Part shown: positions 1 to 44,369 of the stretch, piece by piece | Layout of the letters: each line of letters begins with the position of its first letter | Position numbering within the stretch: the stretch's first letter is position 1 | Made by a program: the position numbers and the translations under genes | IMG/VR virus record: IMGVR_UViG_3300045999_010097 | Location: 1-63,643 of that record | Strand: one strand, 5' to 3' | DNA length: 63,643 bases | Source of the DNA: a virus | Lineage: Duplodnaviria > Caudoviricetes | Notes under the pieces: model-generated | The model's input: only the letters and a program-made list of their open reading frames with translations | What the model was told of the DNA's origin: nothing | Database searches by the model: none

Positions 1-325
1 GGGCGGCGGCGGCGGCGGCTACGGTGGTGGCGGCGTCGGCGGCTACGGTGGTGGCGGCGGCGGCGGCACGGGCGGCGGCGGCGGCGTCGGCGGCGTCGTC
101 GGCGTCGAGTTGGCCGCGCGTGAAGGCGTCGTCGGCGGCGTCGGCGTAGGCGGCGGCACGGGCGGCGGCGTCGGCGTAGGCGGCGACGGCGGCGTCGGCG
201 GCGGCACGGGCGGCGGCGGCGGCGGCACGGGCGGCGTGGGCGGCGGCACGGGCGGCGGCGTAGGCGTAGGCGGCGGCACGGGCGGCGTCGTAGGCGGCGG
301 CACGGACGTAGGCGGCGGCACGGGC
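1..325. repeat. Low-complexity GGC/GGCGGCACG-type coding repeat
   Basis: Degenerate (ggc)n units with acg/gta/gtc interruptions; encodes RAAA/YAAA/DAAA on the minus strand; same unit at 63560-63643. Confidence 0.9.
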
Positions 326-742
326 CTCTTCCAGTGTCGTCGCCTGAGCGCACCGATCGGCATGCTCGTGGAGCCCAGCAGCACGCAAGGCAATCGGCAG
401 CACGCGCGTCACCATGCCGAGCGCGATGGCCTGGACCCAGGCCGAGCGGTCAGTGCCTGCGGTGCCCAATTGCGCGAGCGCCAGAGGCAGGAGTGCCTTT
501 GCTCGAGCCTCTGGCGACGACCACGGCGCATCGTTGATTCTGATCGCAAACTCACGATCTGGCTCAGCGACACACGACGGGCGATCGCCGTGAGCCTCAC
601 CCAGAGCGAGGCAGATAGCAGCCTCGACGCAAAGGCTTCCAGCCTTGGCTTCGCCGAGGCCGCTCACGAGGCCGGCGTTGACGATGTTGATGAGTTTCTG
701 GCGAGTTTCAGCGGTTATCTGTGGGGGCGTCGATTTTGTCAT
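1..742 (-). CDS. Ala-rich low-complexity phage protein, 5' part (runs off the window start and continues at 63643)
   Basis: Not in the ORF track because it is open at the edge. Manual translation from ATG at 742 (AAGGAC upstream): MTKSTPPQITAETRQKLINIVNAGLVSGLGEAKAGSLCVEAAICLALGEAHGDRPSCV...EEARAAAYVRAAAYDAARAAAY..., with no stop seen before position 1. Confidence 0.8.
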   Translation of the reverse strand, partial: MTKSTPPQITAETRQKLINIVNAGLVSGLGEAKAGSLCVEAAICLALGEAHGDRPSCVAEPDREFAIRINDAPWSSPEARAKALLPLALAQLGTAGTDRSAWVQAIALGMVTRVLPIALRAAGLHEHADRCAQATTLEEARAAAYVRAAAYDAARAAAYAYAAARAAAHAARAAAAAARAAADAAVAAYADAAARAAAYADAADDAFTRGQLDADDAADAAAAARAAAAATTVAADAATTVAAAAAA

Positions 743-3522: not shown

Positions 3523-3968
3523 TCATCGTCCGGTAGCGAGGCCAACCCTACCACCAACCAAGCTTCTCTGGGTAATGTTTTTTGTTGTTGGATTCCGTCT
3601 CGGGTCGCTTGTAGGGTCATGACCACTCGGTCGGGTCGTAGGTGGTCCCAGCAGCGACGTAGACGCCACAACATCCAAGGACTATCTTCGGTTGGACGTA
3701 AGAGTGACGGTTCGGCTAGAGAAGCCAGAACGGCTTCGGGGTCTTTTGACGACCGGATGATGTGGGCCAAGTCGTACCTACGCACGAACTCGGGGTACTT
3801 ATCGATAGACCAAACCGACATGCCGTCCAGTGTAACCGCTCGGTACGTCGCGTCTAGGGCGAGTACAGGTGACACCTGGTAGCGACTGCATAGTGTACCG
3901 GACACGACCCATGTGTAGTGGTCGCCGCGCCGCCCCGACCCCCCATAGGAAGGGGTCTTGTCTACCAT
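3366..3968 (-). CDS. Hypothetical protein
   Basis: 200 aa ORF directly upstream of the primase-helicase on the same strand; no motif recognised. Confidence 0.6.
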   Translation of the reverse strand: MVDKTPSYGGSGRRGDHYTWVVSGTLCSRYQVSPVLALDATYRAVTLDGMSVWSIDKYPEFVRRYDLAHIIRSSKDPEAVLASLAEPSLLRPTEDSPWMLWRLRRCWDHLRPDRVVMTLQATRDGIQQQKTLPREAWLVVGLASLPDDEWLPPQDPYDLIEEVTISVDGNQEFKDELTAWVRKPKRRATIQRVLRWIPWA

Positions 3969-4017
3969 AGGTAGTGGGGCCTTGTGGCCTCAACCACTAA
4001 AGTCTACCGTTTTGACG

Positions 4018-4068
4018 GTTTCTTGCTCTATCTAATCTAATAGCAGACAGCTCTTTAGAGCAAGAAAC
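4018..4068. repeat. Inverted repeat with conserved core, copy 1 (candidate origin or regulatory site)
   Basis: GTTTCTTGCTCTA (4018-4030) / TAGAGCAAGAAAC (4056-4068); core TGCTCTATCTAATCTAAT...GCTCTTTAGAGCA is shared with 27399-27457. Confidence 0.75.
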
Positions 4069-4158
4069 TGCTTTTTGGGAAGAGAATTGTGGACGCTACT
4101 ATCCCACACACCATAGGTTGTGTGCATAGACCACCACATCTAGTGGTAGACTACGCGG

Positions 4159-11445: not shown

Positions 11446-11687
11446 AATACTCCGTAAACGATTTCAATAAGGCAATGACCTCGTTGGATACGTCGGTCGT
11501 TGAACAGAATCGTGCTGTCGAACAGATGAACTACGACGTAGTCGATATCGTGAATCAAGTCATTGCGGCTGATGAACCTAGTGCGACTATCACTCGGATT
11601 CCGTTGAACACACCACAAGATATCGCTTTTGTGATGGCTCAAGTGGCTGCACGCATGCGAATTCTCTTGGCGAAAAGGAGGCAGTAA
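11442..11687 (+). CDS. Hypothetical protein
   Basis: ATG at 11442 after GGAGAAG; coupled to both neighbours. Confidence 0.6.
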   Translation: MKYSVNDFNKAMTSLDTSVVEQNRAVEQMNYDVVDIVNQVIAADEPSATITRIPLNTPQDIAFVMAQVAARMRILLAKRRQ

Positions 11688-12196
11688 TGGTCGCTCATCT
11701 GAACGCCGGACATTTTCAAGCCTGGCGCACACCCAAAAGAATCTACGAACAACTCTCCAAAGAGGCGGGTGGCTACTGTGCCGACCTATTCGCCGACAAA
11801 GACAACGCGCTGCACTCAAAGTTCTTCACTGAGAGCGAAGACGCCATCATGCAACAATGGGCTTTCCCTGGTGAAGTAGCCTTCGCCAACCCTCCTTACG
11901 GAGGACACTTTCAAGAAGAGGCTCTTGCTAAGGCCATCACCGAAGTACGTACTGCTAAGCGTCTTCGCGGTGTTGACCTGCTCGTTCAAGCCAGCGTCTC
12001 CACGAAGTGGTTTTTGCGAGCTGTGAAGGAATGCGATGTACAACTCTTTCATGGTCGCATCCAGTTTGACGTTCCTGTTGGCATGGACAACCCCCGTCGC
12101 CCTTCGTTCAGCAACGCCTTGATTCAGGTTAGGGACCGTCGCGGTAAAGGCGTTACGGGCATGCGCTCGGCTAAGACCGGTGCTATCATCCCATGA
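11687..12196 (+). CDS. Phage DNA N6-adenine methyltransferase (lambdoid Dam-like)
   Basis: WRTP, DLFA, catalytic NPPY, STKWF, GRIQF pattern of the phage Dam family. Confidence 0.85.
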   Translation: MVAHLNAGHFQAWRTPKRIYEQLSKEAGGYCADLFADKDNALHSKFFTESEDAIMQQWAFPGEVAFANPPYGGHFQEEALAKAITEVRTAKRLRGVDLLVQASVSTKWFLRAVKECDVQLFHGRIQFDVPVGMDNPRRPSFSNALIQVRDRRGKGVTGMRSAKTGAIIP

Positions 12197-12722: not shown

Positions 12723-12911
12723 GTGACTTTACTCGCCATCACCGTAACAGCTTTGTTCACATTGGCGTTATTCGCCTTGGTGACTGCCGCTGTACAGAAA
12801 GACAAGGATCTTCTTATCAACGCGCTTCTAACCATCGTTAGCGGTGTAGTTTTGCTATCTATTCCGTTCGTGTATCGTGGTGTGCTTTTTCTTGTGAGTG
12901 GTGAACAATGA
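12723..12911 (+). CDS. Small membrane protein
   Basis: AGGAG RBS; two hydrophobic segments. Confidence 0.55.
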   Translation: MTLLAITVTALFTLALFALVTAAVQKDKDLLINALLTIVSGVVLLSIPFVYRGVLFLVSGEQ

Positions 12912-13471
12912 TTCGCACAAACGACGACGAACGAGTTGCAAGCAATGTGTCTCTTTTCAAAACACGAGTAGAACAAACGACCTCCGTCGGTTCTATGGCT
13001 GAGTATGTGCATCTCGCCAAGTCCCTGGTCGAGTTGCGTCGTGCCAAAGACTATGTCAAAGCACGCAAGGAGCAAATCACAGCGCCTGCTAAGGCTTTGA
13101 CCGACACAGCGAAAGAGTGGTTCGGCGCTACTGAAAAGGCTATTGACTCTACAGAGAAGCGTCTCAAGGATTTGCTTGAAGTTTTCATCGAGACACGAGC
13201 GGATACAGCACAAGGTGAGTCAAAAGCTGCCCTTGATGCCGGTGACGTTCAGAAGTCGATCGCATTAATGACGATCGTCCCTGACGTTGAGGGGTTATCG
13301 ATCCGCAACGAAGTCGCGTTTGAGGTCATCGATTACAACGCGGTGCCTGACGAGTTCTTTGAACGAACTATTCGCACGTCTGCTATCAAGACAGCCCTCA
13401 AAGCAGGCGAACAAATCCCCGGCATCGTCCGCAAGGACCGTGTTCAGATTGCCATCTCAACTAAGGATTGA
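12908..13471 (+). CDS. Coiled-coil protein resembling siphovirus Gp157/Gam-like proteins
   Basis: Helical N-terminus; C-terminal VPDEF...IKTALKAGEQIPG signature. Confidence 0.55.
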   Translation: MIRTNDDERVASNVSLFKTRVEQTTSVGSMAEYVHLAKSLVELRRAKDYVKARKEQITAPAKALTDTAKEWFGATEKAIDSTEKRLKDLLEVFIETRADTAQGESKAALDAGDVQKSIALMTIVPDVEGLSIRNEVAFEVIDYNAVPDEFFERTIRTSAIKTALKAGEQIPGIVRKDRVQIAISTKD

Positions 13472-19568: not shown

Positions 19569-20186
19569 GTGACCAATAAAACTCACCCTGTTAGTGCTCC
19601 CCCCGCCGTCGTGGCTGAACTGGCCTCGGCGGCGGTTGCCGTCGCAAGACATGATGCCGACCCCTTGGCGCCTGTGGCTGCGCTCGCCCCGATTGATTTG
19701 AGTCCTTCCGGTGTACCCGTACCCATCGAAATGGATGACGAGGTATATGCGTTACACATGGCAGGTTACACACCGAGCCAAGTAGCCCATCATTTCACCA
19801 AAGTCACTGGTCGACGTTGGACCGTCGAGGATGTGGACCTTTCCATTGGCAGAGTTGCTCAAGCCAATATCGGTCGGACGCAGGCCCAACTCACGTTCGC
19901 GGCTCAGCTCGAACTCGATCGTATGGATGCTGCGCTAAAAGCAATCTGGCCTTCGGTGCAGGACGGCAACCTACAGGCGATGGACCGCTGGTTGAAGTTG
20001 TCGGCGGAACGCCGGAAAATGCTGGGTCTGGACGCCCCCGACGTGCAGGTTCAGCTTCGCCTCGGTGCTGGTGGTGACGTAGACTATTCGACTCTCAGCA
20101 CGGACGAATTGAAAACTCTACAAGCCCTGCAACGTAAAGCCTCTTCAGCATCACGTCAAAAGGTGGTTCGTGGTAGGCAGGAATGA
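19569..20186 (+). CDS. Putative terminase small subunit
   Basis: HTH-like N-terminus; LELDRMD..LKAIW....GNLQAMDR.LK....RRKMLGLDAP and DYSTLSTDEL tail typical of TerS-like phage proteins. Confidence 0.55.
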   Translation: MTNKTHPVSAPPAVVAELASAAVAVARHDADPLAPVAALAPIDLSPSGVPVPIEMDDEVYALHMAGYTPSQVAHHFTKVTGRRWTVEDVDLSIGRVAQANIGRTQAQLTFAAQLELDRMDAALKAIWPSVQDGNLQAMDRWLKLSAERRKMLGLDAPDVQVQLRLGAGGDVDYSTLSTDELKTLQALQRKASSASRQKVVRGRQE

Positions 20187-20859
20187 CTTACCGAGTCACC
20201 TTCGAGCCGAGGTGACGTTATGGGAGGATTACTTCCGGTCTAAGGGCCAAGACCCTACTCGTGTGGAGTACCCTGATTCGGAGTACTTCGTATTCGATGT
20301 GCTTGCGTCTCGCTCGTTGACGGTCAGATTGTCCTGCCTCAATGCCATCAATGAATGGTATGAACGCCATCTCGATCGACCGGGGCCGTTTCGCCAAAAT
20401 CCTTGGGGCTACCCGTTACTCACTCGGTTTTTGCCGGTCACGTTCGGCGAGGCGTTTCAAGCCATCGCAGCCCTGCCCGACCCGGATCGAGGTTATATGG
20501 CGTTGGTTTTGGTGTGCCGTTTCTCGGCAAAGGACGTTGTCGCTTGGAACGGCTTCGCGCCGCAACGCCCTAATCTGGTTGAACACGATGACCTGCATGT
20601 ACCGGTTACCGATACGGTAGTGAAGTGGCTAACACCGTGGCGTCGTCCGGATAAAAAACGCCTAAACGCAGCACTGGCACAGGTTCCATGGTCCGTTACG
20701 GATTTGCATGGGGCTTTGTTCGCTGAACTCGAACGACGTCAAGTACCTGAAGTGACGCGAGCTTCTTTATACGGACGTTGGTCGGCCATGAAGTTTCAAT
20801 CCGCTACCAAACGAGTGGGTTTCTTTAGGGGGCCTTTACCTGGGATCGGTCCAAATTAG
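20170..20859 (+). CDS. Tyrosine-recombinase-fold protein with degenerate active site
   Basis: Spacing resembles XerC/Int (S..T...L.AI..WY; LP..T..E; DR.++.L; VP+; DL....F...L....V.......LYG), but catalytic R, HxxR, H and Y are absent. Confidence 0.5.
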   Translation: MVGRNDLPSHLRAEVTLWEDYFRSKGQDPTRVEYPDSEYFVFDVLASRSLTVRLSCLNAINEWYERHLDRPGPFRQNPWGYPLLTRFLPVTFGEAFQAIAALPDPDRGYMALVLVCRFSAKDVVAWNGFAPQRPNLVEHDDLHVPVTDTVVKWLTPWRRPDKKRLNAALAQVPWSVTDLHGALFAELERRQVPEVTRASLYGRWSAMKFQSATKRVGFFRGPLPGIGPN

Positions 20860-21133
20860 TCGGCCAGGGGACCCAGGGGGTCCCATTCAGATCCGCTGGG
20901 AAAATGACTTTGTTTTGGAGCCCCTAGCGTAATAGTTCGAAGACGTACTCAAAAACCGAGACGAAACGATTTGGGTTTTTTGATGGGTTTTCCCACAATT
21001 CTTCAGCGAAAGTTTCAAGTTTTACGCCGAGTTTCGCGCCGAGTTTTTATTGAAAAGTCCGCCAAACTTTCTAAGTAATTCAGTTGAGTTCGTCCTACTT
21101 TACGCGGCATTTTTATTGGATGTTTTTGTTGGA

Positions 21134-21181
21134 ATTGCGCCAAAGATTGCGCCAAAGATTGCGCCAGATTGTTGGCGCAAT
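21134..21181. repeat. Iteron-like 12-bp repeats with one inverted copy
   Basis: ATTGCGCCAAAG x2, ATTGCGCCAG, then inverted TGGCGCAAT, inside a T-tract-rich non-coding region (20860-21420). Confidence 0.75.
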
Positions 21182-21720
21182 TCGGCGGTTTTGTCTTAGT
21201 TTTTATATTGTTTTGGGTTGGAAAAGTAGGGGCGGTTTTGTATTTTTTCTCGGTTGCTTTTTTATGACCGGAACGGTCCTGAGAGCGAGTTTGGCTGAGC
21301 CAGGCCAAAAATTTTGGTTGGCCGAGCCGCATCGGTTGGCTTTGGCGGGCAAAAATTTTTTGGGCCTATAGGAACTTTTTGAGGGGGTCTGGGGCGCTGT
21401 TGGTCACTTCGGGCATCCCGAAGTCACCCCCTGCAAACCCCGTGCCAAGCGCCTAAAATGGCTTTGCAAAGCCATTTTTTCGTGTTTTTGACGGTGCGCA
21501 AGGCCCGGTTTTCGGCATCGCCCACGGCATCGCCCACGGCATCGGTTAGTGTGCGGTTTGACACTGTGCCAACGTACACACTGGGCGAAACCACACTAGG
21601 GCGAAAACGCACACTACGGATCGGGCAGTGGTTGGATCGTGCGGCATATTGCCGCGTGATCTCCCGATCGGGCCTAAGTGTGTAGATCTCCACAGATCTG
21701 TCGTCGCACGAACAAAACAC

Positions 21721-21749
21721 TTGACGCGATCGCGATCGTGCTTCATGCT
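21721..21749 (+). promoter_or_regulatory. Sigma70-like promoter for the amidoligase module
   Basis: TTGACG-N17-CATGCT; the spacer holds two CGATCG sites. Confidence 0.45.
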
Positions 21750-21789
21750 CGCGCCACAATCGACAACCCGCACACTAGGAGCCGCTCGA

Positions 21790-22221
21790 ATGCCTATCTT
21801 CATCGCCGTCATCCTCGCACCGATCGCCACTATCCTTGCCGTCGTCGCTGCTATGTCTCCGATCGCCTATGCCGTCGCCGTCGGCATCGTTGGCGTTGCC
21901 TTGTTCGCTACGTCGTCGTCGTCGCCCACGGCCTATCTTACCGATACGGGTCCGATCGTCGACTCCGTCGCTACACCGATCGGTGTAGCGGCCGTCCGAG
22001 CCGACCGCGTCGTCCGCGTCGGGGGACTGTCGGTTCGCATTGCGGCGCCGGTTTGGGCCGACGCGGACGACGTGGCGATCGCCCGATCGGCGTTGTTGCG
22101 CGAGTTGGCTCACCTGGAATCGTGCATCGAAAACGCGCGCCGATCGCGGCATCGCACGCGGTGCTCGCAATATCTCGGCCGCTATGCGGCGGTATCTGCC
22201 CGATTGGACGCTTTGCAATGA
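21790..22221 (+). CDS. Membrane protein (two N-terminal hydrophobic helices)
   Basis: ATG at 21790 after CACACTAGGAGCC RBS; MPIFIAVILAPIATILAVV... Confidence 0.65.
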   Translation: MPIFIAVILAPIATILAVVAAMSPIAYAVAVGIVGVALFATSSSSPTAYLTDTGPIVDSVATPIGVAAVRADRVVRVGGLSVRIAAPVWADADDVAIARSALLRELAHLESCIENARRSRHRTRCSQYLGRYAAVSARLDALQ

Positions 22222-22231
22222 CACCGATTGA

Positions 22232-22261
22232 CCCTAACCCCTAACCCCTAACCCCTAACCC
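22232..22261. repeat. (CCCTAAC)n telomere-like, G-quadruplex-forming repeat
   Basis: Minus strand reads GGGTTAGGGGTTAGGGGTTAGGGGTTAGGG. Confidence 0.85.
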
Positions 22262-22283
22262 GTACACACTAGGAGCCAATACC

Positions 22284-23993
22284 ATGCCTACCGACACCGA
22301 TACGACCGACACCGATACCGCCGACACCGCTACCGCTACCGCCGACACCGCTACCGCTACCGCCGACACCGCTACCGCTACCGCTACCGCTACCGCTATC
22401 CCGACGACGCCGCGTGTCAATCGGAAAGTGTGCCAAAAATGCGGCGCAGAATGCGAGCGTCGATTTTGGGTTCACACATCCGCCGACAATCACTCACACC
22501 GTGAACTCTGGTGCTCGTCGTGTCTCGCATCGGACGCGATCGCGTGCTCTCACGCCTATCCGTCACAGCGATGGGCTCGCAGTGTGAGTGTGCGGGCCGC
22601 GTCCGGTGGCACGGCATCCCCCCGTGCGATCGCGGCGTGTGGTTGGGTGCCTTGTCGCGGATGCGGTGCATACCATTATCCATATGACGCGATCGTGGCG
22701 CTCAGCGCCGACGATGTAGTGCATGACGCGTGTGATGGATGTGTCGATTGCTACGTGCCTCGGACGTATCGCGTGCCCGTGGGGTTGCCTCACGGTGGCA
22801 TCGTCCAGGCCGATCGGCGTCATCCGATGATCCGATCGGTCCGGACCGCTAGCGGGGGCACGTCGCAATGGCGATACGACCCGATCGTCCGATCGTGCCC
22901 CGGATGTGGCGCCGAGTGGCTCGCAGCGGCTTGCTGGGCGACGTCGTGGCGTCCATTGCCGCTAGACTCCGACGACGTGACCCACGGACCTCGTGAGGTC
23001 GCGGTCTGCCCGGCGTGTCATACGAATGCGACGGCGGGTGACGGAGGCGATCCGATCCTGGGGTACGGGTCGTCCTTTGGACGCGTGCATCCGATCGGTT
23101 CCGTCGATGGTAAATTGACGCAACGTGGAACGGATCCGAAACGCGCTAAGGCCGATCGCGGTTATACCGTGCCGCTGTTGTTTGGCGTAGAAGTGGAAAT
23201 TGCGTGCCCTGATTCCACGCCTACACCTGAGCACGTGAACAGACACGCTAGGTTGTCGCTTGGCACGGTATATGCTGAGGGGAAACGTGACTCAAGCATC
23301 GCACCGCGTGGTGTGGAAATCGTGACGCATCCGGCGACGATCGGCGCGCATCGTATCGCGTGGGGCAATTGGCGCCCACCGGTGGGCGCCGTCGCGAATG
23401 AGTCTTGTGGCTTGCACGTACACATCTCCCGATCGGCGTTGACAACCGGGCAGATCGATCGGCTTGCCTACTTGCTCTCACGGCGTCACGACCTTAGTCG
23501 ATGGTCCACCATTTTCCGTCGACAACCGAATAGCTACGCCAAAGCCATGCCCGTCGGTTCGTTTCCGCGTCGACGATGGAAAGACGTGGCGTCGGACCGG
23601 TACCACGTGCTCAATTTGGCCGGACGTGAGACGATAGAGATCCGATGGCCGCGCGGGACGGTTCGCGGTGACGTCATTTTAGCAACAATCGAATTAATGC
23701 ACATTATGTGCCACTATGTAGCGGCGGGGAATCCGGGGGGGTCGCATACATCGTCGGCGTTGTGTCTGGACGCGCTGTTGCGTTGGATCACGACGTCGCC
23801 GTGGGCGAGGTCGGAGACCCGAACATTGCGACCGTATCTGGTAAGCCGTGGCATTTTGCCGCAAGAAAAGAACGCCAAACCGACAACTTCCGCCGTCGAC
23901 GACGGCACTGAAGCGCACGGGACGACGGGCCCGCTACTCGGGTCACGATCGGGCTGGTCGGCGTTGCGGGATGCTCTCGCTGATACACACTGA
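22284..23993 (+). CDS. Putative amidoligase (COOH-NH2 ligase, glutamine-synthetase fold) with T/A/D repeat and Zn-ribbon N-terminus
   Basis: FGVEVE, DSSI..GVEIVTHP, SCGLHVHIS, RYHVLN, TIEIR; multiple CxxC; N-terminal hexamer repeats (TDTATATA). Confidence 0.85.
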   Translation: MPTDTDTTDTDTADTATATADTATATADTATATATATAIPTTPRVNRKVCQKCGAECERRFWVHTSADNHSHRELWCSSCLASDAIACSHAYPSQRWARSVSVRAASGGTASPRAIAACGWVPCRGCGAYHYPYDAIVALSADDVVHDACDGCVDCYVPRTYRVPVGLPHGGIVQADRRHPMIRSVRTASGGTSQWRYDPIVRSCPGCGAEWLAAACWATSWRPLPLDSDDVTHGPREVAVCPACHTNATAGDGGDPILGYGSSFGRVHPIGSVDGKLTQRGTDPKRAKADRGYTVPLLFGVEVEIACPDSTPTPEHVNRHARLSLGTVYAEGKRDSSIAPRGVEIVTHPATIGAHRIAWGNWRPPVGAVANESCGLHVHISRSALTTGQIDRLAYLLSRRHDLSRWSTIFRRQPNSYAKAMPVGSFPRRRWKDVASDRYHVLNLAGRETIEIRWPRGTVRGDVILATIELMHIMCHYVAAGNPGGSHTSSALCLDALLRWITTSPWARSETRTLRPYLVSRGILPQEKNAKPTTSAVDDGTEAHGTTGPLLGSRSGWSALRDALADTH

Positions 23994-24023
23994 CCCCACA
24001 CAACCACGATAGGAGCGGAACCA

Positions 24024-24935
24024 ATGTGCCTCATTGTTGACCAACACAAAAACACACCGCTAACCGATGAAGAATTGCGATCGGTATACCGTAAGAATTC
24101 CGACGGCATGGGGGCTGTGTACACTGAACGCGGCCGCTTGAAGGCATGGCGATATGTGCCGAAAAATGCCGACGACGCGATCGCGGCGTACCGCGTCACG
24201 CTGGACCGGGCAGACGATCGCGTCGTCTGGCACTGGCGCTTCGCAACACACGGCGTGGTGTCCGTGGCGATGTCGCACCCTTTCGGGTTGCCGTTTGGGG
24301 CTTATCTTCTACATAACGGCGTCCTAGGGGCCTGGGGGAATCGTGCCGCGTCGGGTGAATCGGACACGGCTTGCCTAGCGCGACATATTGCCGCAATCGC
24401 GACGCACGCGAGCACATATGACGATCCTAGGTTTCGGGCATGGTTGGCGCGGGAAGTGCAAGGGTCCGCTGTCTTAATCGTGCGACGATCGCCCGATGAC
24501 GGGCGAATGGTGGTCGACCGATACGGTAACGAGGGGATCCACCATGCCGATCGTTGGCTGAGCAATACCTATGCCGGACCGTCGAGTCTGTATCCTCCTC
24601 CGGTCTGGACGCCGCGCCAATGGTCCCCCCCGTCGTCGGGGCTGCGCCTTGACAGGCCGGGTATACCATGGGGCCCCGGTACCGTGGCTGAGCTTGCGTC
24701 GACGATCGCGGCAACAGGGTGGCATGGTAAATGGGCCCTGGAGTCGGATGACGTCGACGTGGTGAGGTGGGGTATCGGCGAATGGTGCTCCGAGCAATCC
24801 GCCGATGGTCTAACCGTCGCTGTACGCGAATGCCACGGCGGACGGGTCATGCTAACCGTATCGGGCGATGCTTGGGTCGCTTGGGTCAATCGTCGTCGCC
24901 AGCTTGCCCGATCGTCTTGGGCTTGGGGGGATTGA
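24024..24935 (+). CDS. Class II (Ntn) glutamine amidotransferase
   Basis: Catalytic Cys2 (MCLI), NSDGMG, HWRFATHG, HPF, HNG, SDT. Confidence 0.9.
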   Translation: MCLIVDQHKNTPLTDEELRSVYRKNSDGMGAVYTERGRLKAWRYVPKNADDAIAAYRVTLDRADDRVVWHWRFATHGVVSVAMSHPFGLPFGAYLLHNGVLGAWGNRAASGESDTACLARHIAAIATHASTYDDPRFRAWLAREVQGSAVLIVRRSPDDGRMVVDRYGNEGIHHADRWLSNTYAGPSSLYPPPVWTPRQWSPPSSGLRLDRPGIPWGPGTVAELASTIAATGWHGKWALESDDVDVVRWGIGEWCSEQSADGLTVAVRECHGGRVMLTVSGDAWVAWVNRRRQLARSSWAWGD

Positions 24936-24971
24936 CCGAGGTCGACCGAAACTAGGTCGACCTAGACTTAG

Positions 24972-24999
24972 ACCGGACCCATAAGGGTCCGGTTTTTTT
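24972..24999 (+). terminator. Rho-independent terminator
   Basis: ACCGGACCC-ATAA-GGGTCCGGT followed by a T-run. Confidence 0.85.
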
Positions 25000-25101
25000 G
25001 TGTGGTATGATATGGTTGCAAATTCCATGCCAATAGCAATAATCGTGCCACGATCAAACAGGGCCGCTATAACGGCATTATGTCCGCTATAACAGACACA
25101 C

Positions 25102-25353
25102 ACGGCGCGGCATTATGCCGCACCGATCGGGCATTGACACGGTCCTGTGGTCTTGGTAGGATCGCGGTCGAGGCGACTAGGCTCCGATCTAGATCGGTTC
25201 CAATCGGAACGGCACCATCGGATCCGCTACAACGGTCGGCCCCGTACCGTATCGCGTTGACATAATGCGGTTTAAATCGGGGGATGACCCTCCGATGCCA
25301 AACCGATCGGATCCGATCGGTTTGGAATTGCTACGGCGCGGCATTATGCCGCA
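25102..25353. repeat. 21-bp direct repeat containing palindrome GCGGCA-N3-TGCCGC
   Basis: ACGGCGCGGCATTATGCCGCA at 25102-25122 and 25333-25353; same palindrome at 21641-21655. Confidence 0.8.
25134..25162 (+). promoter_or_regulatory. Sigma70-like promoter with no convincing downstream ORF
   Basis: TTGACA-N17-TAGGAT, 12 bp after the palindrome. Confidence 0.5.
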
Positions 25354-25861
25354 TGGTCTTATGTGGGGGGTAGATCTACCTTGACAAAAAATTGCGCAAG
25401 GTGGGGGGTCCCGGAATCGGATGGGTCGCTATCGGATTTCCCCTGATCCCCGAACCATCCAAGCCCGTCCAAGCCCATCCAAGTCCGTCTAAGCCCAGGG
25501 GTGTCTTTTTAAACCCCACCCCCATGAAAATAGGGTCCCTAGTCAGGGCATACCCATTTCACAGCTACGGTATCGGGACCGATAGGTCTCGTGATGAGCT
25601 GACATTTGGCGTAGTGCATAGCCACAACCTCAGTCGGATTCAGAATAAGGCGAAGCAGGAAAGCGAGGATCAGCACGGTACACTCCACGCACCAGGCGGT
25701 CCAATTCGCGATGTACGAATTGATTTGCCTGCTCCATAGAGCTTACCGTAAACACGAAAATACCATCCGTCAAGATCCTGGCGGTCCCGTCTTTTTGTCG
25801 GTTGCAAGCGAAGTCGGTTCCCGTGCGAATGAGTCCTGGTACCGCTACCGGTAGGCACGGT

Positions 25862-26116
25862 TCAGCGAGGGATTCGGTTGCCATCGGCGTCGAAGTAGGT
25901 GACATCTTTTTTAGCCAGTTTCTTCACTAGGAGTTCGGAGGATTCTTGTTCGGCGGTTCCGTCCAAGTCGGACCAGCCCCACCAACGACGTACTTCAATT
26001 CGCCACGGGTAACTCCAATTGACGCGAGGCAGATATCGAATTCGATATCGGGCTTCGGGTCGAAGGCTGCCGTTGAAAACGGCCATGGACGTGTTTGGTT
26101 GGTCAGAGGTCGTCAT
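25862..26116 (-). CDS. Hypothetical protein
   Basis: AAGGAAG RBS; overlaps the upstream gene's stop. Confidence 0.55.
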   Translation of the reverse strand: MTTSDQPNTSMAVFNGSLRPEARYRIRYLPRVNWSYPWRIEVRRWWGWSDLDGTAEQESSELLVKKLAKKDVTYFDADGNRIPR

Positions 26117-26270
26117 GAGCTTCCTTGATAGCCTTGGATTTATGTCGTCGGATAGCTCGCCTCGTTAGGCGTTTGACATGGCGTCGGGCTCGTGGCGAGC
26201 CGTTGCAGTACCGGCACAGACACGCCGCGAAACCTTTCATATTTGCTTCCGCTCGACTTTTGGCGTCCAT
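26103..26270 (-). CDS. Small basic Cys-containing protein
   Basis: MDAKSRAE...CLCRYC...; starts 1 nt after the upstream stop. Confidence 0.5.
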   Translation of the reverse strand: MDAKSRAEANMKGFAACLCRYCNGSPRARRHVKRLTRRAIRRHKSKAIKEAHDDL

Positions 26271-26271
26271 G

Positions 26272-26520
26272 TCAAACCACTTCGCCCAAGATATCCACCG
26301 ATTGTACGACACACTTGTCATGGGTCGGAGACACCACCAACCATGTTTCGCCACCAGCATGGGTCACCAACACTTTAGGTCCGGATACGGCTTTGACCGT
26401 CCCGTCCAATGGAAAGAAATGACCCTTGAGTTGAAAGCGGAAGCGAACATCCTTTCCGACATAGCGGCGGAAGTAGGCTGGGCCTTGGGTCGCTTCGAGG
26501 TTCTTCTTCAAGATTCGCAT
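26272..26520 (-). CDS. Hypothetical protein
   Basis: AGGAGG RBS before ATG 26520 (MRILKKN...). Confidence 0.55.
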   Translation of the reverse strand: MRILKKNLEATQGPAYFRRYVGKDVRFRFQLKGHFFPLDGTVKAVSGPKVLVTHAGGETWLVVSPTHDKCVVQSVDILGEVV

Positions 26521-26563
26521 TCGAGCCTCCTGGCCTGAAGGATAGCCACGGTGAAGGGGCCGT

Positions 26564-27205
26564 CTAGCGTCGTTTTGCCCAGCGGTCTCGTGCCGCACAA
26601 GATCGACACCAGGCTTCGTACTTGGTGGGGTCGAATCCTTTGCGGCGTAGGGCCACCAAAAAGGCGGGGTCGGTGGCTACTTTAGGTCGGATAAAGACCT
26701 GCTCGGGTTTGCCCGTCAAGTCGATTTGACATTGGGAGCACTTGGACGAATCGACCTGGTGCCGTTTGTTGGCACGAATATTGCTGTTGTGTTGGGAATC
26801 GTTCCGTAGTGGGGCGACCACTCGCGCAATCCACAGGTCTGCGTCTGGTCCGTCCAGTCGGCCGGTTGCGGACAGCCATTGCAGCACCGACCGTTCCGGT
26901 AGGTCGTAGATGCTACTCGTTTCGGTCATCGGTTTCGGTGTGTAGCGGCGAAGCACCCCGATGGATTCGAGATGGTCACACATGACCCGATAGTTCGTGA
27001 ACACGGTTCCTTTGTACTTACAGGGCCAATCAGCATCCCATTTCGGGAGTCCGTCCGATGGATTGATGTCGAATGGTTCCATAGCGACCTTCATCGGGTC
27101 GTCCCCGGCTTGGAGACGGGCGTAGTAGAGGTCGTATGGAATCCCGGCCCGCATCAAGAAGTGGTTGTGCGATTCGTAACCGGGTGGCGGGTTTGAAGCG
27201 ACCAT
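26564..27205 (-). CDS. Hypothetical protein with C-terminal Zn-finger-like CxxC pairs
   Basis: CSQC...WCRSC; first gene downstream of the large palindrome. Confidence 0.6.
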   Translation of the reverse strand: MVASNPPPGYESHNHFLMRAGIPYDLYYARLQAGDDPMKVAMEPFDINPSDGLPKWDADWPCKYKGTVFTNYRVMCDHLESIGVLRRYTPKPMTETSSIYDLPERSVLQWLSATGRLDGPDADLWIARVVAPLRNDSQHNSNIRANKRHQVDSSKCSQCQIDLTGKPEQVFIRPKVATDPAFLVALRRKGFDPTKYEAWCRSCAARDRWAKRR

Positions 27206-42157: not shown

Positions 42158-42573
42158 TGCCTGACAATGTCGGATACACACCGGGATCGGGCGCCACGAT
42201 TGCAGCCGATGACGTCGGTGGCGCACTGTATCAGCGCGTCAAGCTCGCGACGGGCGCCGATGGGGTTATCGAGGGCGACGTCTCGCCCGCGAATCCTATG
42301 CCGATTCAGGAAGTCAGCGGGGCCATGTCGTGGCTGCGCCGTATCTTCGATCGGCTCTCGTCGCCGCCTGCCTACGACAGCTCGCTGGACCGCTCGCGCG
42401 GTACGGTCGTCGTCGAAAGTGGCACCGTGACGACGGTGAGCACCGTGACGACATGCACAACGGTCACGACGGTGGCCGGACTCACCAACATCGACGGCCG
42501 CAGCGGCGCAATGCTGATCGACCAGACCAACCTGTCGGCGTGGGCAAATTGTCACCGCGCACGAATCACCTGA
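42157..42573 (+). CDS. Hypothetical virion-region protein
   Basis: TGATG-coupled; VTTVSTVTT repeats. Confidence 0.6.
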   Translation: MPDNVGYTPGSGATIAADDVGGALYQRVKLATGADGVIEGDVSPANPMPIQEVSGAMSWLRRIFDRLSSPPAYDSSLDRSRGTVVVESGTVTTVSTVTTCTTVTTVAGLTNIDGRSGAMLIDQTNLSAWANCHRARIT

Positions 42574-42582
42574 GGAAACGAC

Positions 42583-44196
42583 ATGGCCAACACGTTCAAA
42601 AAAGTCATCGATCGCATGATCTGGGCGCAGATTGCGCCCGCGCCAAACGCGCACGCTGCTGGCTCGTCGATGTGCTGGGACATGAGAAACGACGCCAGCC
42701 GAAATCCGTTCGTTTACAATCTCATCTCGGCGACGGTGTTGAACCGGCTCAATATCGTCACCAAAGCGTGGCAACTTGCTGTCTCTCCCAGCGTCTCGGC
42801 CGTGGCTGCATCGTCGACGTCGTGCTTTGTTCCGTCGTTCGGCGCGGTCGGCACGATCGCGGCCGGCGCCACGACGACAAGCGTTGTCCTCTCGACGGCA
42901 CTGGCGACGGCTCCCGGCGTCAACATGTTGGCCAATCGTGGCGGGTCCGGCGAACTCGGCTTCAAACTTCGGATCATCGATACGGTAGCGGGCAAAACAG
43001 AAGAGCGATGGATCGTCGCCAACACGGCATCGACGACGCCGACGATTCACGTCGATGCAGCTTTCACCTTCACTCCGTCGACTGGCGCACGCTACGAGAT
43101 CCTCGGTGGCCGTGTGTTCATGCTCGGGTCCGGCGCAATTGCGGCGACGTCGTGGCGTATCTTCGAGGTGATGACAAACTCGTTGACGAACGGCGGCAAC
43201 ACCAACTTGCCGACGATCGCGACTGATTCAGCGCTCCTCGTCATGGACGAGCAATACGTTCCCTACGACCACAAACCCGGCGAAGGCATGGTCAAAGGCG
43301 CCACGGTCTACGACGCCTCGCCAGCGGGCCAAGGGCTCGTCGCGTTGCTTGCGACGGCGTCGGGTGCGTCGACGATCACTGGTCAGGCGACGGGCGGTGA
43401 CGCCGTCGTCGCGATCAACGAATATCGCAATTTCCAGGTCCGCATCGTCGCTGACCCGACGACGCCGGGAAGCGTTGGTCAGCGCCGAATCATTGCCAGC
43501 CACACGGCGGGACCATCGGCGGTCTACACGCTTGGCGCCGCTTGGACGACACAGCCGTCGTCGTCGGCGCGTTTCGTGATTGAGCAACCAAACCAAATCG
43601 TGTTGCGCACGGCGGGCAACACGACGACCTACACATACAACTACACCGACGCCACGCAAAACAACGGTACGAACTCAATCGCCGCAAACGCGTGGTCAAC
43701 GACGTATTTTGCCGTCGGGCCAGCGGTCAACGCGATCGGGTGCATGTGGATGCCTAGTTTTGGTATCCAGCCCGATGTGGCGCGCCTTGCGCGACACAGT
43801 CACAATTTTTTCTGGCGCGGCAACGCGACAACGATCGACCTCCTCGACATCGCTGGGAGCACGACAGGCACATGGACCGGCGGCGTTACCTACGATGGCG
43901 TTTCGCTTGCGCCTGCTGCTGGCTCGACGTCGTGCTACGCCCCTTACGACCAAGAGGGGCGCTTCAGCTACGTCAACATCTACGTCGCCAGCGCCATCAA
44001 TCAAATCTTCCGATTTGACGCCAAAAACCGCGTTCTGTCGCCGTATACGCCGACAGGATTCATCCAAGCCGGAACGGCGACACAGGGCGGGCGCATGGCG
44101 TCGTATTGCGCGATCGACGGCACTGACAAGTACAGCGTCGTGCTGTTGCAGTCGCACCTCTCCACAATCAGCCAAGAGCTTATCCCCCTCGTGTGA
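42583..44196 (+). CDS. Hypothetical Ser/Thr-rich beta-rich protein with internal duplication (possible fibre or decoration)
   Basis: GAGG RBS; two copies of R.I.A.TA...P....Y/F.I module. Confidence 0.7.
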   Translation: MANTFKKVIDRMIWAQIAPAPNAHAAGSSMCWDMRNDASRNPFVYNLISATVLNRLNIVTKAWQLAVSPSVSAVAASSTSCFVPSFGAVGTIAAGATTTSVVLSTALATAPGVNMLANRGGSGELGFKLRIIDTVAGKTEERWIVANTASTTPTIHVDAAFTFTPSTGARYEILGGRVFMLGSGAIAATSWRIFEVMTNSLTNGGNTNLPTIATDSALLVMDEQYVPYDHKPGEGMVKGATVYDASPAGQGLVALLATASGASTITGQATGGDAVVAINEYRNFQVRIVADPTTPGSVGQRRIIASHTAGPSAVYTLGAAWTTQPSSSARFVIEQPNQIVLRTAGNTTTYTYNYTDATQNNGTNSIAANAWSTTYFAVGPAVNAIGCMWMPSFGIQPDVARLARHSHNFFWRGNATTIDLLDIAGSTTGTWTGGVTYDGVSLAPAAGSTSCYAPYDQEGRFSYVNIYVASAINQIFRFDAKNRVLSPYTPTGFIQAGTATQGGRMASYCAIDGTDKYSVVLLQSHLSTISQELIPLV

Positions 44197-44204
44197 GGTC
44201 TTCC

Positions 44205-44369
44205 ATGTCGATTGAAGAGTTGATTGAGCTTGTCAGACGCAAGCTCACGTCGCTGAGCGGGGCACGATCGCATGCGTACCTCATCGGCGATATCGAGGCT
44301 GTCGTCGATCTGGACGCCAAAATTGAAACCACACAGACATCGTTGGACCAACTTCTAACGCTGGTGTGA
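44205..44369 (+). CDS. Small helical protein
   Basis: GAGG RBS, MSIEELIELVRRKL... (54 aa, below the track cutoff). Confidence 0.55.
   Translation: MSIEELIELVRRKLTSLSGARSHAYLIGDIEAVVDLDAKIETTQTSLDQLLTLV

What the first reader, a model, noticed from the sequence alone, without database searches (positions are those of the whole stretch)
21420..25500. Self-contained ~4 kb amidoligase + glutamine amidotransferase module saturated with CGATCG
Seen: by manual count roughly 30 CGATCG hexamers between 21660 and 25320, where about 1-2 are expected from base composition; they look sparse elsewhere. They occur in coding and non-coding DNA, including the promoter spacer. The module has its own promoter, shared RBS context, terminator and flanking palindromes, and encodes a membrane protein, a Zn-ribbon amidoligase and an Ntn GATase. 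Established: amidoligase-GATase pairs occur in phages with unknown targets; T5 and SPO1 carry pre-early modules in long terminal repeats. Inference: a first-injected or terminal-repeat host-takeover module whose sequence is shaped by methylation or restriction (a Dam-like MTase is encoded at 11687), or a protein-binding array.
Basis: partly seen in the sequence, partly recalled or inferred. Interest (0 to 1): 0.75.

Follow-up and report, generated by a model that had tools for sequence, protein, structure and literature searches.

The report
CGATCG-saturated accessory operon in phage
One three-gene accessory operon of an uncultured freshwater phage is packed almost to the limit with the six-letter palindrome CGATCG while the rest of the phage is not, which points to selection on the DNA word itself by a reader that is still unknown.

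Summary
33 of the contig's 64 CGATCG sites lie in 21665-25319, at 8.8/kb against 0.52/kb elsewhere. The excess survives order-1 and order-2 Markov backgrounds. It also survives a shuffle that keeps each protein and its own codon usage: 27 coding sites against 8.9±2.35, 0 of 2000 shuffles as high. 27 of 38 synonymously possible positions are used, against 27 of 233 in the backbone. Density is the same in coding and non-coding DNA, and one-mismatch neighbours are not enriched.

The block is a membrane protein, Zn-ribbon amidoligase and Ntn-amidohydrolase operon in a conserved slot of a phage family. Its divergence scales with backbone divergence in three relatives, and its codon usage is ordinary once the sites are masked. 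It therefore looks inherited and fast-evolving, not recently imported. A distant relative (L002) has its own island at entirely different positions, L003 has a weaker one, and the closest relative with DNA (L001) has none.

The terminal-repeat idea could not be tested. Earlier notes of this scan report similar islands on other DNA.

The parts
21641..21655 (.). Left bracketing palindrome GCGGCA-N3-TGCCGC (operator-like). The first CGATCG of the island starts 10 bases after it.
   Evidence: 3 exact copies in the whole window (21641, 25107, 25338) and 5 with up to 1 mismatch, against 0.35 expected. inverted repeat I3.
21665..25319 (.). The CGATCG island: 33 sites, 8.8/kb, in coding and non-coding DNA alike.
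21718..21746 (+). Weak promoter-like site TTGACG-N17-CATGCT with two CGATCG in its spacer. Not called by the consensus scan.
   Evidence: Sequence. One search lists no promoter here.
21790..22221 (+). Gene 1: 143-aa protein with a hydrophobic first ~40 residues (probably two membrane helices) and a basic C-terminal helix region. 7 CGATCG (16/kb).
   Evidence: hydropathy at least 1.9 over residues 1-43. (28% identical to the L001 gene in the same place). (7 of 8 possible sites used). No Pfam or PHROG match.
22284..23993 (+). Gene 2: 569-aa amidoligase. It has a Thr/Ala/Asp repeat at the N-terminus, then six CxxC pairs (Zn-ribbon-like), then the Amidoligase_2 catalytic domain (about 296-530). 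13 CGATCG.
   Evidence: PF12224, 31.9 bits against a cut-off of 22. (phrog_2443, amidoligase). (C205, C208, C242 and C245 invariant). (structure model poor, pLDDT 43.8).
24024..24935 (+). Gene 3: 303-aa class-II (Ntn) glutaminase-fold protein that starts Met-Cys, with an extra C-terminal domain of about 90 aa. 7 CGATCG.
   Evidence: Cys2 invariant in 9 of 9. (profile matches EgtC at 6.8e-5 and GlmS). (GATase_4 in 5 of 9 family members, not in this protein itself). (pLDDT 77; Foldseek GlmS glutaminase domain, EgtC and PurF, E 4e-6).
24970..24995 (+). Intrinsic-terminator-like hairpin (11 pairs) followed by a T run, ending the three-gene unit.
25107..25162 (+). Second copy of the palindrome (25107-25121), one CGATCG (25124), then the best sigma-70-like promoter of the region (TTGACA-17-TAGGAT with TG, 25134-25162).
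25168..25335 (+). Non-coding stretch downstream of that promoter that folds strongly as RNA. It ends in a perfect hairpin holding two CGATCG (25295-25328). Candidate small RNA and the last part of the island.
   Evidence: -70.3 kcal/mol, z = -3.6, 0 of 200 shuffles as good. inverted repeat I10. (partly conserved in L001).
25338..25352 (.). Right bracketing palindrome. The last CGATCG ends 19 bases before it. It is followed by a backbone sequence conserved in L001 and L002 (TTGACA...AAAATTGCGCAAGGTGGGGGGTCC, about 25382-25412).
   Evidence: (alignment A3).
11687..12196 (+). Phage-type Dam (GATC N6-adenine methyltransferase). It is the only DNA methyltransferase found on the contig.
   Evidence: PF05869, E 1.2e-22. 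(no PF00145, PF01555 or PF03852 match on the contig).

Best explanation
The block is a separately regulated accessory operon that has long been part of this freshwater phage family. It encodes a small membrane protein, a Zn-ribbon amidoligase and an Ntn glutaminase/amidohydrolase. The exact hexamer CGATCG has been driven close to saturation in place, by selection or a biased repair drive acting on the DNA word itself. This has happened between two operator-like palindromes (21641 and 25338) and nowhere else on the contig.

Shown: the enrichment is real, exact, independent of reading frame and limited to the operon. It costs synonymous freedom and some amino-acid choices. The operon co-diverges with the backbone.

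Inferred (about 0.3 on its own): CGATCG works here as an enzyme recognition or methylation word. The writer would be a host CGATCG cytosine methyltransferase, and the phage Dam acts on the inner GATC. Dense marking would give this one operon an epigenetic state that a methylation-sensitive factor reads, for example to time or silence a potentially harmful cell-envelope-modifying function. This would resemble Dam control of the Mu mom operon, but spread over a whole operon.

From published family-level proposals: the enzyme pair most likely makes or trims a gamma-glutamyl/amide link on a cell-envelope or protein target.
For: 1. Exact-word signal.
- 33 sites against 5.3 (order 1) or 11.7 (order 2) expected.
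- 27 coding sites against 8.9±2.35 under protein- and codon-usage-preserving shuffles, 0 of 2000 as high.
- 27 of 38 possible synonymous positions are used, against 27 of 233 in the backbone.
- Density is equal in coding (8.8/kb) and non-coding (8.6/kb) DNA.
- The site-to-neighbour ratio is 33:37 in the island and 31:400 outside.

2. Cost to proteins.
- Compatible dipeptides are 2-3.7 times more frequent than in the backbone: RS 10.8 against 4.5, DR 9.8 against 4.0 and PI 7.9 against 2.2 per 1000 aa.
- Many sites sit where relatives have other residues.
- The closest protein relatives (86% and 63-67% identical) share the raised count of compatible contexts: 3.6, 2.6 and 4.1 per 100 aa, against 1.1-2.0 in the L001 clade.

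3. Not a recent import.
- Cassette and backbone identity fall together.
- The 61,952-bp relative: backbone proteins 99% and 93% identical, GATase 86%.
- L001: backbone 91% and 76-77%, GATase 51%, amidoligase 42%.
- The 70,465-bp relative: backbone 69%, GATase 38%.
- After masking the sites, the amidoligase and GATase genes rank 29th and 31st of 52 genes for codon-usage distance from the genome mean.
- The GC excess is mostly at codon positions 1 and 2 (0.60 against 0.52-0.58), not position 3.

4. Recurrence with turnover.
- L002 (cassette about 37% identical) has 25 of 28 sites in its first 5 kb around the cassette (p 3e-8).
- In L002, 11 of 22 possible positions are used and 0 of 1000 shuffles are as high.
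- None of W's 20 amidoligase and GATase sites shares an alignment column with L002's 11.
- L003 has 9 of 9 sites in the cassette part (p 3e-4).

5. Edges.
- The island starts 10 bases after one copy of a palindrome and ends 19 bases before another. That palindrome has only 3 exact copies on the contig.
- In W and L002 the island stops just before the same conserved backbone sequence.

6. No known genome-wide density matches it.
- Synechococcus elongatus PCC 7942 has 7,402 HIP1 in 2.7 Mb, about 2.7/kb (PMC3025956, passages read).
- Elhai models a set point of about 1 site per kb (PMC4390886, passages read).
Against: - No reader or writer of CGATCG was found. The contig has only Dam and no C5 or N4 cytosine methyltransferase or Vsr.
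- The contig is estimated to be 63% complete, and the host is unknown.
- L001 also has Dam but uses 0 of 21 possible sites in its cassette. Dam alone therefore cannot be the cause, and the island is dispensable for the operon.
- Why a reader would need sites all through the gene bodies, and not only at promoters, is unexplained.
- The co-divergence argument rests on three relatives.
- Gene 1 does have unusual codon usage (rank 7 of 52).
- NCG codons stay somewhat raised after masking.
- A second, weaker cluster (8 sites in 42348-44265; 6 of 8 possible positions used in 42583-44196) lies outside the operon and is not explained by this reading.
- In 76 other amidoligase-bearing phage loci there is no comparable palindrome island, so nothing ties the word to the enzymes' chemistry.
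- No methylation, expression or coverage data exist.
Confidence: 0.5

Rival explanations
1. Imported cassette. The W-type operon was swapped in by recombination at conserved flanks, from a phage, prophage or host lineage whose whole genome is under a CGATCG (HIP1-core-like) drive. The island is then simply donor composition.
For: - The cassette is far more diverged than its flanks relative to L001: 42-51% against 76-91% protein identity, with no detectable DNA similarity inside but about 72% outside.
- Short conserved patches flank it: 21344-21397 and 25018-25127.
- The block is GC-richer, 0.61 against about 0.54.
- In L003 the backbone avoids the word (0 against 4.3 expected) while the cassette does not, as a foreign segment would.
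- Genome-wide CGATCG or HIP1 enrichment exists in cyanobacteria (PMC4390886, PMC3025956). L012 is a cassette-bearing phage with 20 sites against 5.4 expected, spread evenly.
Against: - Cassette identity tracks backbone identity in three relatives (86/93-99, 51/76-91 and 38/69), as expected for vertical descent at about twice the rate.
- Masked codon usage is ordinary.
- Only 5 of 33 sites are the HIP1 octamer. The favoured flanks are C before and G after, unlike cyanobacterial HIP1.
- In cyanobacteria, the CGATCG excess largely vanishes when HIP1 is subtracted (PMC4390886).
- The density of 8.8/kb is about three times that of the densest cited genome.
- Among 108 fetched loci, no 3.75-kb stretch exceeds 19 sites.
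- Three separate phages would each need a CGATCG-rich donor.
- One scan of 185,579 species genomes, using two peptide patterns, found no close bacterial homologue: only Pelistega at 32-33%.
Confidence: 0.2
2. Recombination or end-protection word. In the host, CGATCG would act like a Chi site. An operon filled with it would resist exonuclease and recombine through its flanks. That would favour survival and spread of the cassette, or protect a DNA end that lies nearby.
For: - A preprint reports that HIP1, which contains CGATCG, raises integration into Synechococcus PCC 7002 up to 7-fold, and over 100-fold when methylated. Its authors suggest a Chi-like role (bioRxiv 10.1101/2024.09.10.611283, abstract read).
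- The cassette evolves faster than its flanks, and conserved sequences bracket it.
- The phage encodes a Mu Gam-like end-protection protein.
Against: - The host is unknown, and there is no sign that it is a cyanobacterium.
- The backbone shows no enrichment (31 against 30.6), although Chi-like words are normally favoured genome-wide.
- The co-divergence pattern argues against frequent cassette exchange.
- No DNA end is mapped.
Confidence: 0.1
3. RNA-level word. The selected object would be CGAUCG (or SGAUCG) in the transcripts. It could be a target of a sequence-specific RNase for timed decay, as GGAG is for T4 RegB (my recollection). It could also be a self-complementary contact for RNA-RNA pairing with the structured RNA downstream.
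For: - The island coincides with two apparent transcription units and stops at their ends.
- In L002 the related word GGATCG is strand-biased: 20 on the coding strand against 4 CGATCC. A palindrome-reading DNA enzyme would not cause that.
- The 168-nt downstream RNA candidate carries two CGAUCG in a stem.
- A protein with a weak PHROG match annotated 'Rnase E' is encoded just upstream.
Against: - Sites at 21665, 21727 and 21733 lie at or before the only promoter-like site seen.
- W shows no strand bias: GGATCG 3, CGATCC 3.
- No RNase of that specificity is known to me.
- L001 keeps the upstream protein at 91% identity but has no sites.
Confidence: 0.08
4. One reading: a first-injected or long-terminal-repeat pre-early module, as in T5 or SPO1.
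For: - It has its own regulatory elements and a terminator, small and accessory genes, and a distinct sequence style.
- A collapsed terminal repeat can look internal in an assembly.
Against: - There is no second copy on the contig.
- The record is linear with no end repeats found, by the class that IMG/VR gives it.
- The same cassette sits between the same backbone genes in L001.
- In T5, by my recollection, first-entering DNA is purged of restriction sites, not filled with them. An earlier scan note (unchecked) on a freshwater phage reports the same.
- Coverage could not be examined.
Confidence: 0.05
5. Artefact: a chimeric contig, or chance.
For: The source is a metagenome assembly. The block has a distinct composition.
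Against: - Three homologous genes occupy the same slot in L001.
- Boundary sequences are conserved.
- Runs from other studies hold 88% and 65% of the words of 20000-27000. The junctions themselves were not inspected.
- Chance is excluded.
Confidence: 0.02

Closest known systems
HIP1 (GCGATCGC) and its CGATCG core in cyanobacterial genomes, with orphan CGATCG and GATC methyltransferases (Elhai 2015, PMC4390886)
   Same: The core word is the same. It is enriched far beyond composition in coding and non-coding DNA, formed in place by point changes, and linked in the literature to methylation and a biased repair model.
   Different: HIP1 is genome-wide at about 1-3 per kb and is an octamer. Here the word is the bare hexamer: 5 of 33 sites are octamers, and CCGATCGG flanks are preferred. 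It is confined to 3.7 kb of a phage at 8.8/kb, and the other 60 kb is neutral. No CGATCG methyltransferase was found on the contig.
Dam-dependent control of the phage Mu mom operon, and GATC clusters at oriC or P1 pac (recalled from general knowledge, not from a call)
   Same: A phage or host GATC methylase, plus clustered sites, gives one locus a methylation-dependent state. The controlled function can harm the cell.
   Different: In those cases a handful of sites sit in a regulatory region of about 100-250 bp. Here 33 hexamers run through whole gene bodies, and the selected word is longer than GATC.
Phage 'morons' (autonomous accessory transcription units in mosaic phage genomes; recalled)
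   Same: Accessory genes with their own regulatory elements and terminator sit between backbone modules, with a distinct composition.
   Different: This cassette is present, in diverged form, in all relatives examined and co-diverges with the backbone. It is not a sporadic recent add-on.
Amidoligase-GATase pairs of phages (phiEco32, LUZ24-like phages, mycobacteriophage Marvin, OM43 phages MEP401/402)
   Same: Adjacent Amidoligase_2 and class-II GATase genes. A role in modifying the cell wall to block superinfection has been proposed, as cited in PMC10580990 (passages read).
   Different: This version has a long Zn-ribbon N-terminal half, an added C-terminal domain on the GATase and a membrane-protein partner. 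None of 76 other amidoligase loci shows a comparable palindrome island.
Methylation-word islands noted earlier in this scan (GANTC in phage early operons; a local GATC/CGATCG cluster in another phage). These are AI notes that I did not check.
   Same: A methyltransferase-type word is packed several-fold into one block of phage genes at a cost to codons and proteins, and this recurs in relatives.
   Different: The word and the presumed host group differ. Here the enrichment is 17-fold, against about 5-fold in those notes, and it covers one three-gene operon plus a small non-coding unit.

Membership tests
HIP1-type highly iterated palindrome | The octamer GCGATCGC is the over-represented form | tested here: not met
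   5 of 33 sites are GCGATCGC, against 2.9 expected from independent flanks. C before (19 of 33) and G after (14 of 33) dominate.
HIP1-type highly iterated palindrome | Genome-wide distribution at roughly 1-3 per kb | tested here: not met
   The backbone has 31 sites against 30.6 expected (order 4) and 28.3 (order 1). The island has 8.8/kb.
HIP1-type highly iterated palindrome | A cognate CGATCG methyltransferase in the genome | tested here: inconclusive
   No PF00145 or PF01555 match on the contig. The host is unknown and the contig is about 63% complete.
Amidoligase_2 (PF12224) | Match to the family model above the curated cut-off | tested here: met
   31.9 bits against 22, residues 341-420. 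PHROG 2443 'amidoligase enzyme', E 1.7e-9.
Class-II (Ntn) glutamine amidotransferase / amidohydrolase | N-terminal catalytic Cys directly after the start Met | tested here: met
   The protein starts MCLI, and Cys2 is invariant in 9 of 9 homologues.
Class-II (Ntn) glutamine amidotransferase / amidohydrolase | Ntn glutaminase fold | tested here: met
   Model pLDDT 77.4. Foldseek finds the GlmS glutaminase domain, EgtC and PurF at E 4e-6 to 1e-4, TM 0.37-0.49. The profile search finds EgtC at 6.8e-5.
Class-II (Ntn) glutamine amidotransferase / amidohydrolase | Pfam family match of the protein itself | tested here: not met
   0 families for the window's protein. GATase_4 is found in 5 of 9 homologues.
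Phage Dam (PF05869) | Match above the cut-off | tested here: met
   80.8 bits against 28.1. Its GATC specificity is assumed from the family, not tested.
T5/SPO1-type terminal-repeat pre-early module | Lies in a long direct terminal repeat (two copies, or doubled read depth) | not testable with these tools
   There is no second copy on the contig.
T5/SPO1-type terminal-repeat pre-early module | Expressed first after infection | not testable with these tools
   No RNA run is listed as holding the stretch.
Moron | Own promoter and terminator | tested here: inconclusive
   A terminator-like hairpin was found at 24970-24995. The consensus scan called no promoter ahead of gene 1, and only a weak site can be read.
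Moron | Sporadic presence among otherwise collinear relatives (recent addition) | tested here: not met
   Homologous cassettes occupy the same slot in L001 and are present in L002. Cassette and backbone divergence run in parallel.

The most novel reading that the evidence does not exclude
Phages can give a single operon an epigenetic address. They saturate that operon with the target word of a methyltransferase (here CGATCG, elsewhere GANTC), so that a methylation-sensitive host or phage factor treats it differently from the rest of the genome. Because selection acts on density and not on positions, sites turn over freely: none is shared between W and L002. Lineages that meet a cognate restriction enzyme purge the island, as L001 has.
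Probability: 0.3. Interest if true: 0.8.

Novelty: new variant of a known kind. Interest (0 to 1): 0.62.

Why it matters
Short palindromes in phage genomes are usually discussed as things to avoid, because restriction enzymes cut them. Most relatives fetched here do avoid CGATCG, for example L005 with 1 site against 11.1 expected and L016 with 0 against 6.4. This phage does the opposite in one operon. It uses 71% of all positions where the word can be written without changing the protein, and it has also shifted amino acids to fit more.

If that is selection for a mark, a whole operon rather than a promoter can be the unit of epigenetic control in a virus. The mark can then be found from sequence alone. 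It would also offer a way to study the function of the CGATCG core of HIP1, which has stayed unexplained in cyanobacteria, in a 3.7-kb natural test piece that has a site-free natural control (L001).

If it is instead donor composition, it marks a reservoir of genomes with a higher CGATCG load than any in the papers I read.

Tried and rejected
- Closest relatives' DNA. I therefore could not read the 61,952-, 60,596- and 70,465-bp contigs. I used protein identities and contig lengths instead.
- Phage collection DNA searches with the module and with 26-46 kb found no match.
- Single-protein scans of viral contigs found nothing. Profile scans gave 18 and 79 loci.
- The metagenome scan gave only distant fragments. 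The species-genome scan gave only Pelistega at 32-33%. A scan with the upstream backbone gene returned only L001's contig.
- Read evidence. One search listed 24 runs, none on record as RNA ('no RNA holder listed'). Depth, junctions and variants are therefore untested.
- Host. TerL and DNA polymerase have only distant cultured relatives, at no more than 37% and 29% identity and with mixed hosts. No host call is made.
- High-order Markov backgrounds (orders 3 and 4) were rejected as circular.
- GC content as proof of foreign origin was rejected. The excess is mainly at codon positions 1 and 2.
- The idea that palindrome islands are a general property of amidoligase cassettes was rejected. Of 76 loci tested, the best was CCATGG, 6 against 1.2 in L077, and none was comparable.
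- No other palindrome replaces CGATCG in L001's cassette.
- Rfam gave only two sub-threshold matches.
- The amidoligase structure model was too poor to search with.
- The Iyer 2009 paper is not held. Its proposal is cited through PMC10580990.
- Supplementary tables of Elhai 2015 (absolute CGATCG densities) were not seen and could change the density comparison.
- Literature searches for a local restriction-type palindrome island in a phage found no precedent. These are three keyword searches of the held library only.

Full report
**What the window is.** The window is one whole virus record of 63,643 bases. IMG/VR classes it as linear, and CheckV estimates it to be 63% complete. Its recognisable genes are these:
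- DNA polymerase, helicase, exonuclease and RNA ligase
- a phage-type Dam
- ThyX, a class-II-like ribonucleotide reductase, and several glycosyltransferases with a sugar-activation set
- large terminase, a Mu-like portal, a ClpP-type protease and a scaffold
- two tRNAs

It has no close cultured relative. DNA searches of the phage collection found nothing. TerL and the polymerase reach only 37% and 29% identity at most, to phages of mixed hosts. Its 31-mers occur in many lake and freshwater metagenomes from different studies.

CGATCG occurs 64 times, and 33 of these lie between 21665 and 25319. In 21600-25350 the density is 8.8/kb, against 0.52/kb elsewhere. Local expectations are 1.2 from base composition, 5.3 from order 1 and 11.7 from order 2. 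Orders 3 and 4 give 24-27, but only because the pentamers they use are themselves the sites.

I then kept each protein and each gene's own codon usage and permuted synonymous codons. The three genes carry 27 sites against 8.9±2.35, with a maximum of 16 in 2000 shuffles.

Next I counted every place where the word could be written without changing the protein. The cassette uses 27 of 38. The rest of the genome uses 27 of 233. Further properties of the signal:
- The sites are spread over all three frames.
- Density is the same in the 697 non-coding bases (6 sites) as in the 3,054 coding bases (27 sites).
- Only the exact word is affected. Its 18 one-mismatch neighbours together number 37 in the island and 400 outside, roughly the same per kb.
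- Dipeptides that can carry the word are 2-3.7 times more frequent than in the backbone.
- Many sites sit at positions where relatives have different residues.

The word has therefore been written into the DNA at some cost to the proteins.

**Anatomy.**
- *Gene 1 (21790-22221)* encodes a 143-aa protein with a strongly hydrophobic first 40 residues. It matches no family.
- *Gene 2 (22284-23993)* is an Amidoligase_2 enzyme. Its first half holds a Thr/Ala/Asp repeat and six CxxC pairs, four of whose cysteines are invariant in homologues.
- *Gene 3 (24024-24935)* starts Met-Cys. Its Cys2 is invariant in nine homologues, and its model matches the Ntn glutaminase domains of GlmS, EgtC and PurF. The protein itself misses the Pfam cut-offs, although five of nine relatives match GATase_4.
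- *Ribosome-site context.* All three genes share a TAGGAGC context.
- *Terminator and downstream unit.* A terminator-like hairpin follows at 24970-24995. After it comes the best promoter-like site of the region (25134-25162). That site leads into 168 non-coding bases that fold far better than shuffles (z -3.6) and end in a perfect hairpin holding two CGATCG.
- *Bracketing palindrome.* GCGGCA-N3-TGCCGC has only three exact copies on the contig: 21641, 25107 and 25338. The first CGATCG starts 10 bases after the first copy. The last ends 19 bases before the third.
- *What lies on either side.* To the left is an AT-rich spacer with short tandem repeats. To the right is a sequence conserved in L001 and L002.

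**Relatives.** Adjacent amidoligase-GATase pairs are known in phages (PMC10580990). Profile scans fetched about 100 viral loci.

- *L001* is a true relative of this phage. Its DNA is about 72% identical up to 20914 and again from about 26.4 kb, with small conserved patches at 21344-21397, 25018-25200 and 25335-25463. The flanking proteins are 76-91% identical. In the same slot it has the same three genes (138, 569 and 354 aa). These are only 28-51% identical, and none of their 21 possible CGATCG positions is used. L001 as a whole is poor in the word: 6 against 10.2 expected.
- *L002* is a more distant relative, with backbone proteins 35-66% identical and the cassette about 37%. It has 25 of its 28 sites in the first 5 kb, around the cassette and a second small unit (p 3e-8). 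Its amidoligase and GATase use 11 of 22 possible positions, and 0 of 1000 shuffles are as high. Its island ends just before the same conserved backbone sequence as in the window. None of the window's 20 sites in these two genes shares an alignment column with any of L002's 11. L002 also shows a strand-biased excess of GGATCG (20 against 4 CGATCC), which I cannot explain.
- *L003* has all 9 of its sites in the cassette part and none in the other 5.2 kb.
- *The wider set.* Among 76 further amidoligase loci, no palindrome shows a comparable local excess. Among all 108 loci held, no 3.75-kb stretch has more than 19 CGATCG. Most of these phages avoid the word.

1. *Codon usage.* With the sites masked, the amidoligase and GATase genes rank 29th and 31st of 52 genes for distance from the genome's mean usage. 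Gene 1 ranks 7th. The block's extra GC is mostly at codon positions 1 and 2, which reflects protein composition.
2. *Divergence.* I compared the cassette with the backbone gene just upstream in three relatives.
   - In the 61,952-bp relative the two upstream proteins are 99% and 93% identical, and the GATase is 86%.
   - In L001 they are 91% and 76-77%, and the GATase is 51%.
   - In the 70,465-bp relative the upstream protein is 69% and the GATase 38%.

   The cassette diverges about twice as fast as its neighbour but in step with it. That is what vertical descent predicts and random swapping does not.
3. *Flanks of the sites.* Only 5 of 33 are GCGATCGC, and the preferred flanks are C before and G after. 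In cyanobacteria the CGATCG excess largely disappears once HIP1 is subtracted (PMC4390886, passages).
4. *Density.* 8.8/kb is about three times the HIP1 load of Synechococcus elongatus PCC 7942, which is 7,402 in 2.7 Mb (PMC3025956, passages). Elhai lists that strain among those with the highest absolute CGATCG densities.

Together these make import the less likely reading (about 0.2), though not an excluded one. The cassette is still far more diverged than its flanks, and L003's backbone-versus-cassette contrast looks like a foreign segment.

**What writes or reads the word?** The contig encodes Dam but no C5 or N4 cytosine methyltransferase and no Vsr. L001 also has Dam and no island, so Dam alone is not the cause.

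The exactness of the word, with its neighbours not enriched, points to an enzyme-type recognition site and not to a loose binding motif. CGATCG is the PvuI-type site (my recollection) and the target of the widespread cyanobacterial orphan methyltransferases (PMC4390886).

The backbone of this phage is neutral for the word (31 against 30.6). Its host therefore probably does not restrict the word. L001 and many relatives look restricted.

My best account is that the operon is marked by dense methylation of this word, and that a methylation-sensitive factor uses the mark to time or silence the operon. The operon's enzymes are proposed in the literature to alter the cell envelope (PMC10580990, citing Iyer 2009, which I could not read). 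That step is inference. No methylation, expression or binding data exist, and I cannot say why gene bodies and not promoters alone would need the sites.

Earlier notes of this scan report GANTC islands in phage early operons and a local GATC/CGATCG cluster in another phage. They prompted the methyltransferase search, but I did not check them and they are not evidence.

**Other readings kept open.**
- *Chi-like recombination or end-protection word.* A preprint abstract reports that methylated HIP1 raises recombination in PCC 7002.
- *RNA-level word.* This is supported only by L002's strand bias and by the match of the island to apparent transcription units.
- *Chimeric assembly.* This is unlikely, given the synteny with L001 and the 88% and 65% word shares in independent runs. 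The junctions themselves were not inspected.

**Verdict.** This is a real, statistically extreme, operon-limited saturation with an exact restriction/methylation-type palindrome, on a cassette that appears to be an old resident of the phage family. It recurs with full positional turnover in a distant relative and has been purged in another. I rate it a new variant of known kinds (HIP-type word enrichment and methylation-site clusters), with an unknown reader. Three keyword searches of the held literature found no description of such an island in a phage.

Noticed in passing
window 25134-25335: An orphan promoter-like site (TTGACA-17-TAGGAT with TG) leads into 168 non-coding bases that fold strongly as RNA (z -3.6). 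They end in a perfect 28-nt hairpin. Part of the stretch is conserved in L001. Candidate small RNA.
   Followed up: partly
window 22222-22283 (spacer between gene 1 and the amidoligase gene); L001 8205-8245: A four-copy heptanucleotide tandem repeat fills the spacer. L001 has a different C/A-rich short tandem repeat at the same place, and L002 has similar C/A-rich repeats downstream of its cassette (3900-4150).
   Followed up: no
window 22288-22392: The amidoligase gene opens with imperfect 15- to 21-nt tandem repeats that encode a Thr/Ala/Asp low-complexity N-terminus. The 60,596-bp relative's protein (P0003) has a similar repeat.
   Followed up: no
window 21015-21175; L001 6890-7060: The AT-rich spacer left of the cassette holds short tandem repeats (12-nt units). 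L001 has a longer array of different ~20-nt units at the same place. They look iteron-like, so this may be an origin or a regulator array.
   Followed up: no
window 42348-44265: A second, weaker CGATCG cluster of 8 sites in 1.9 kb. The 537-aa head-region ORF 42583-44196 (GC 0.61, no family match) uses 6 of 8 possible positions; 36 of 500 codon shuffles are as high.
   Followed up: partly
L002 1-5000: GGATCG is strongly strand-biased in L002's island (20 on the coding strand against 4 CGATCC, and 0 against 1 in its backbone), in several frames and in non-coding DNA. The window shows no such bias (3 against 3).
   Followed up: partly
L004, L005, L007, L010, L016, L018, L003 1-5199: Many related phage loci avoid CGATCG relative to their own CGATC and GATCG counts, for example 1 against 11.1, 0 against 6.4, 0 against 4.3 and 1 against 6.2. 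This suggests that PvuI-type restriction is common in their hosts.
   Followed up: partly
whole window: CGCGCG, GCGCGC and CCGCGG are strongly depleted throughout (for example 4 against 29.3, 0 against 10.9 and 2 against 19.1), and likewise in L001 and L002. This looks like restriction avoidance.
   Followed up: no
window 1-400 and 63440-63643: Both contig ends are (GGC)n-rich (GC up to 0.81). The assembly probably broke inside a Gly-rich gene or repeat. The record is classed as linear and 63% complete.
   Followed up: no
protein collection: The search for amidoligase homologues of 312-996 aa found none at about 86% identity, although the 61,952-bp relative has an 86% GATase. Its amidoligase may be split, shortened or replaced. 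Gene 1's 90% cluster holds only the window's own protein.
   Followed up: no
window 13257-13277: Two CGATCG lie 15 bases apart inside the Mu Gam-like gene (12908-13471), which uses 2 of its 3 possible positions.
   Followed up: no
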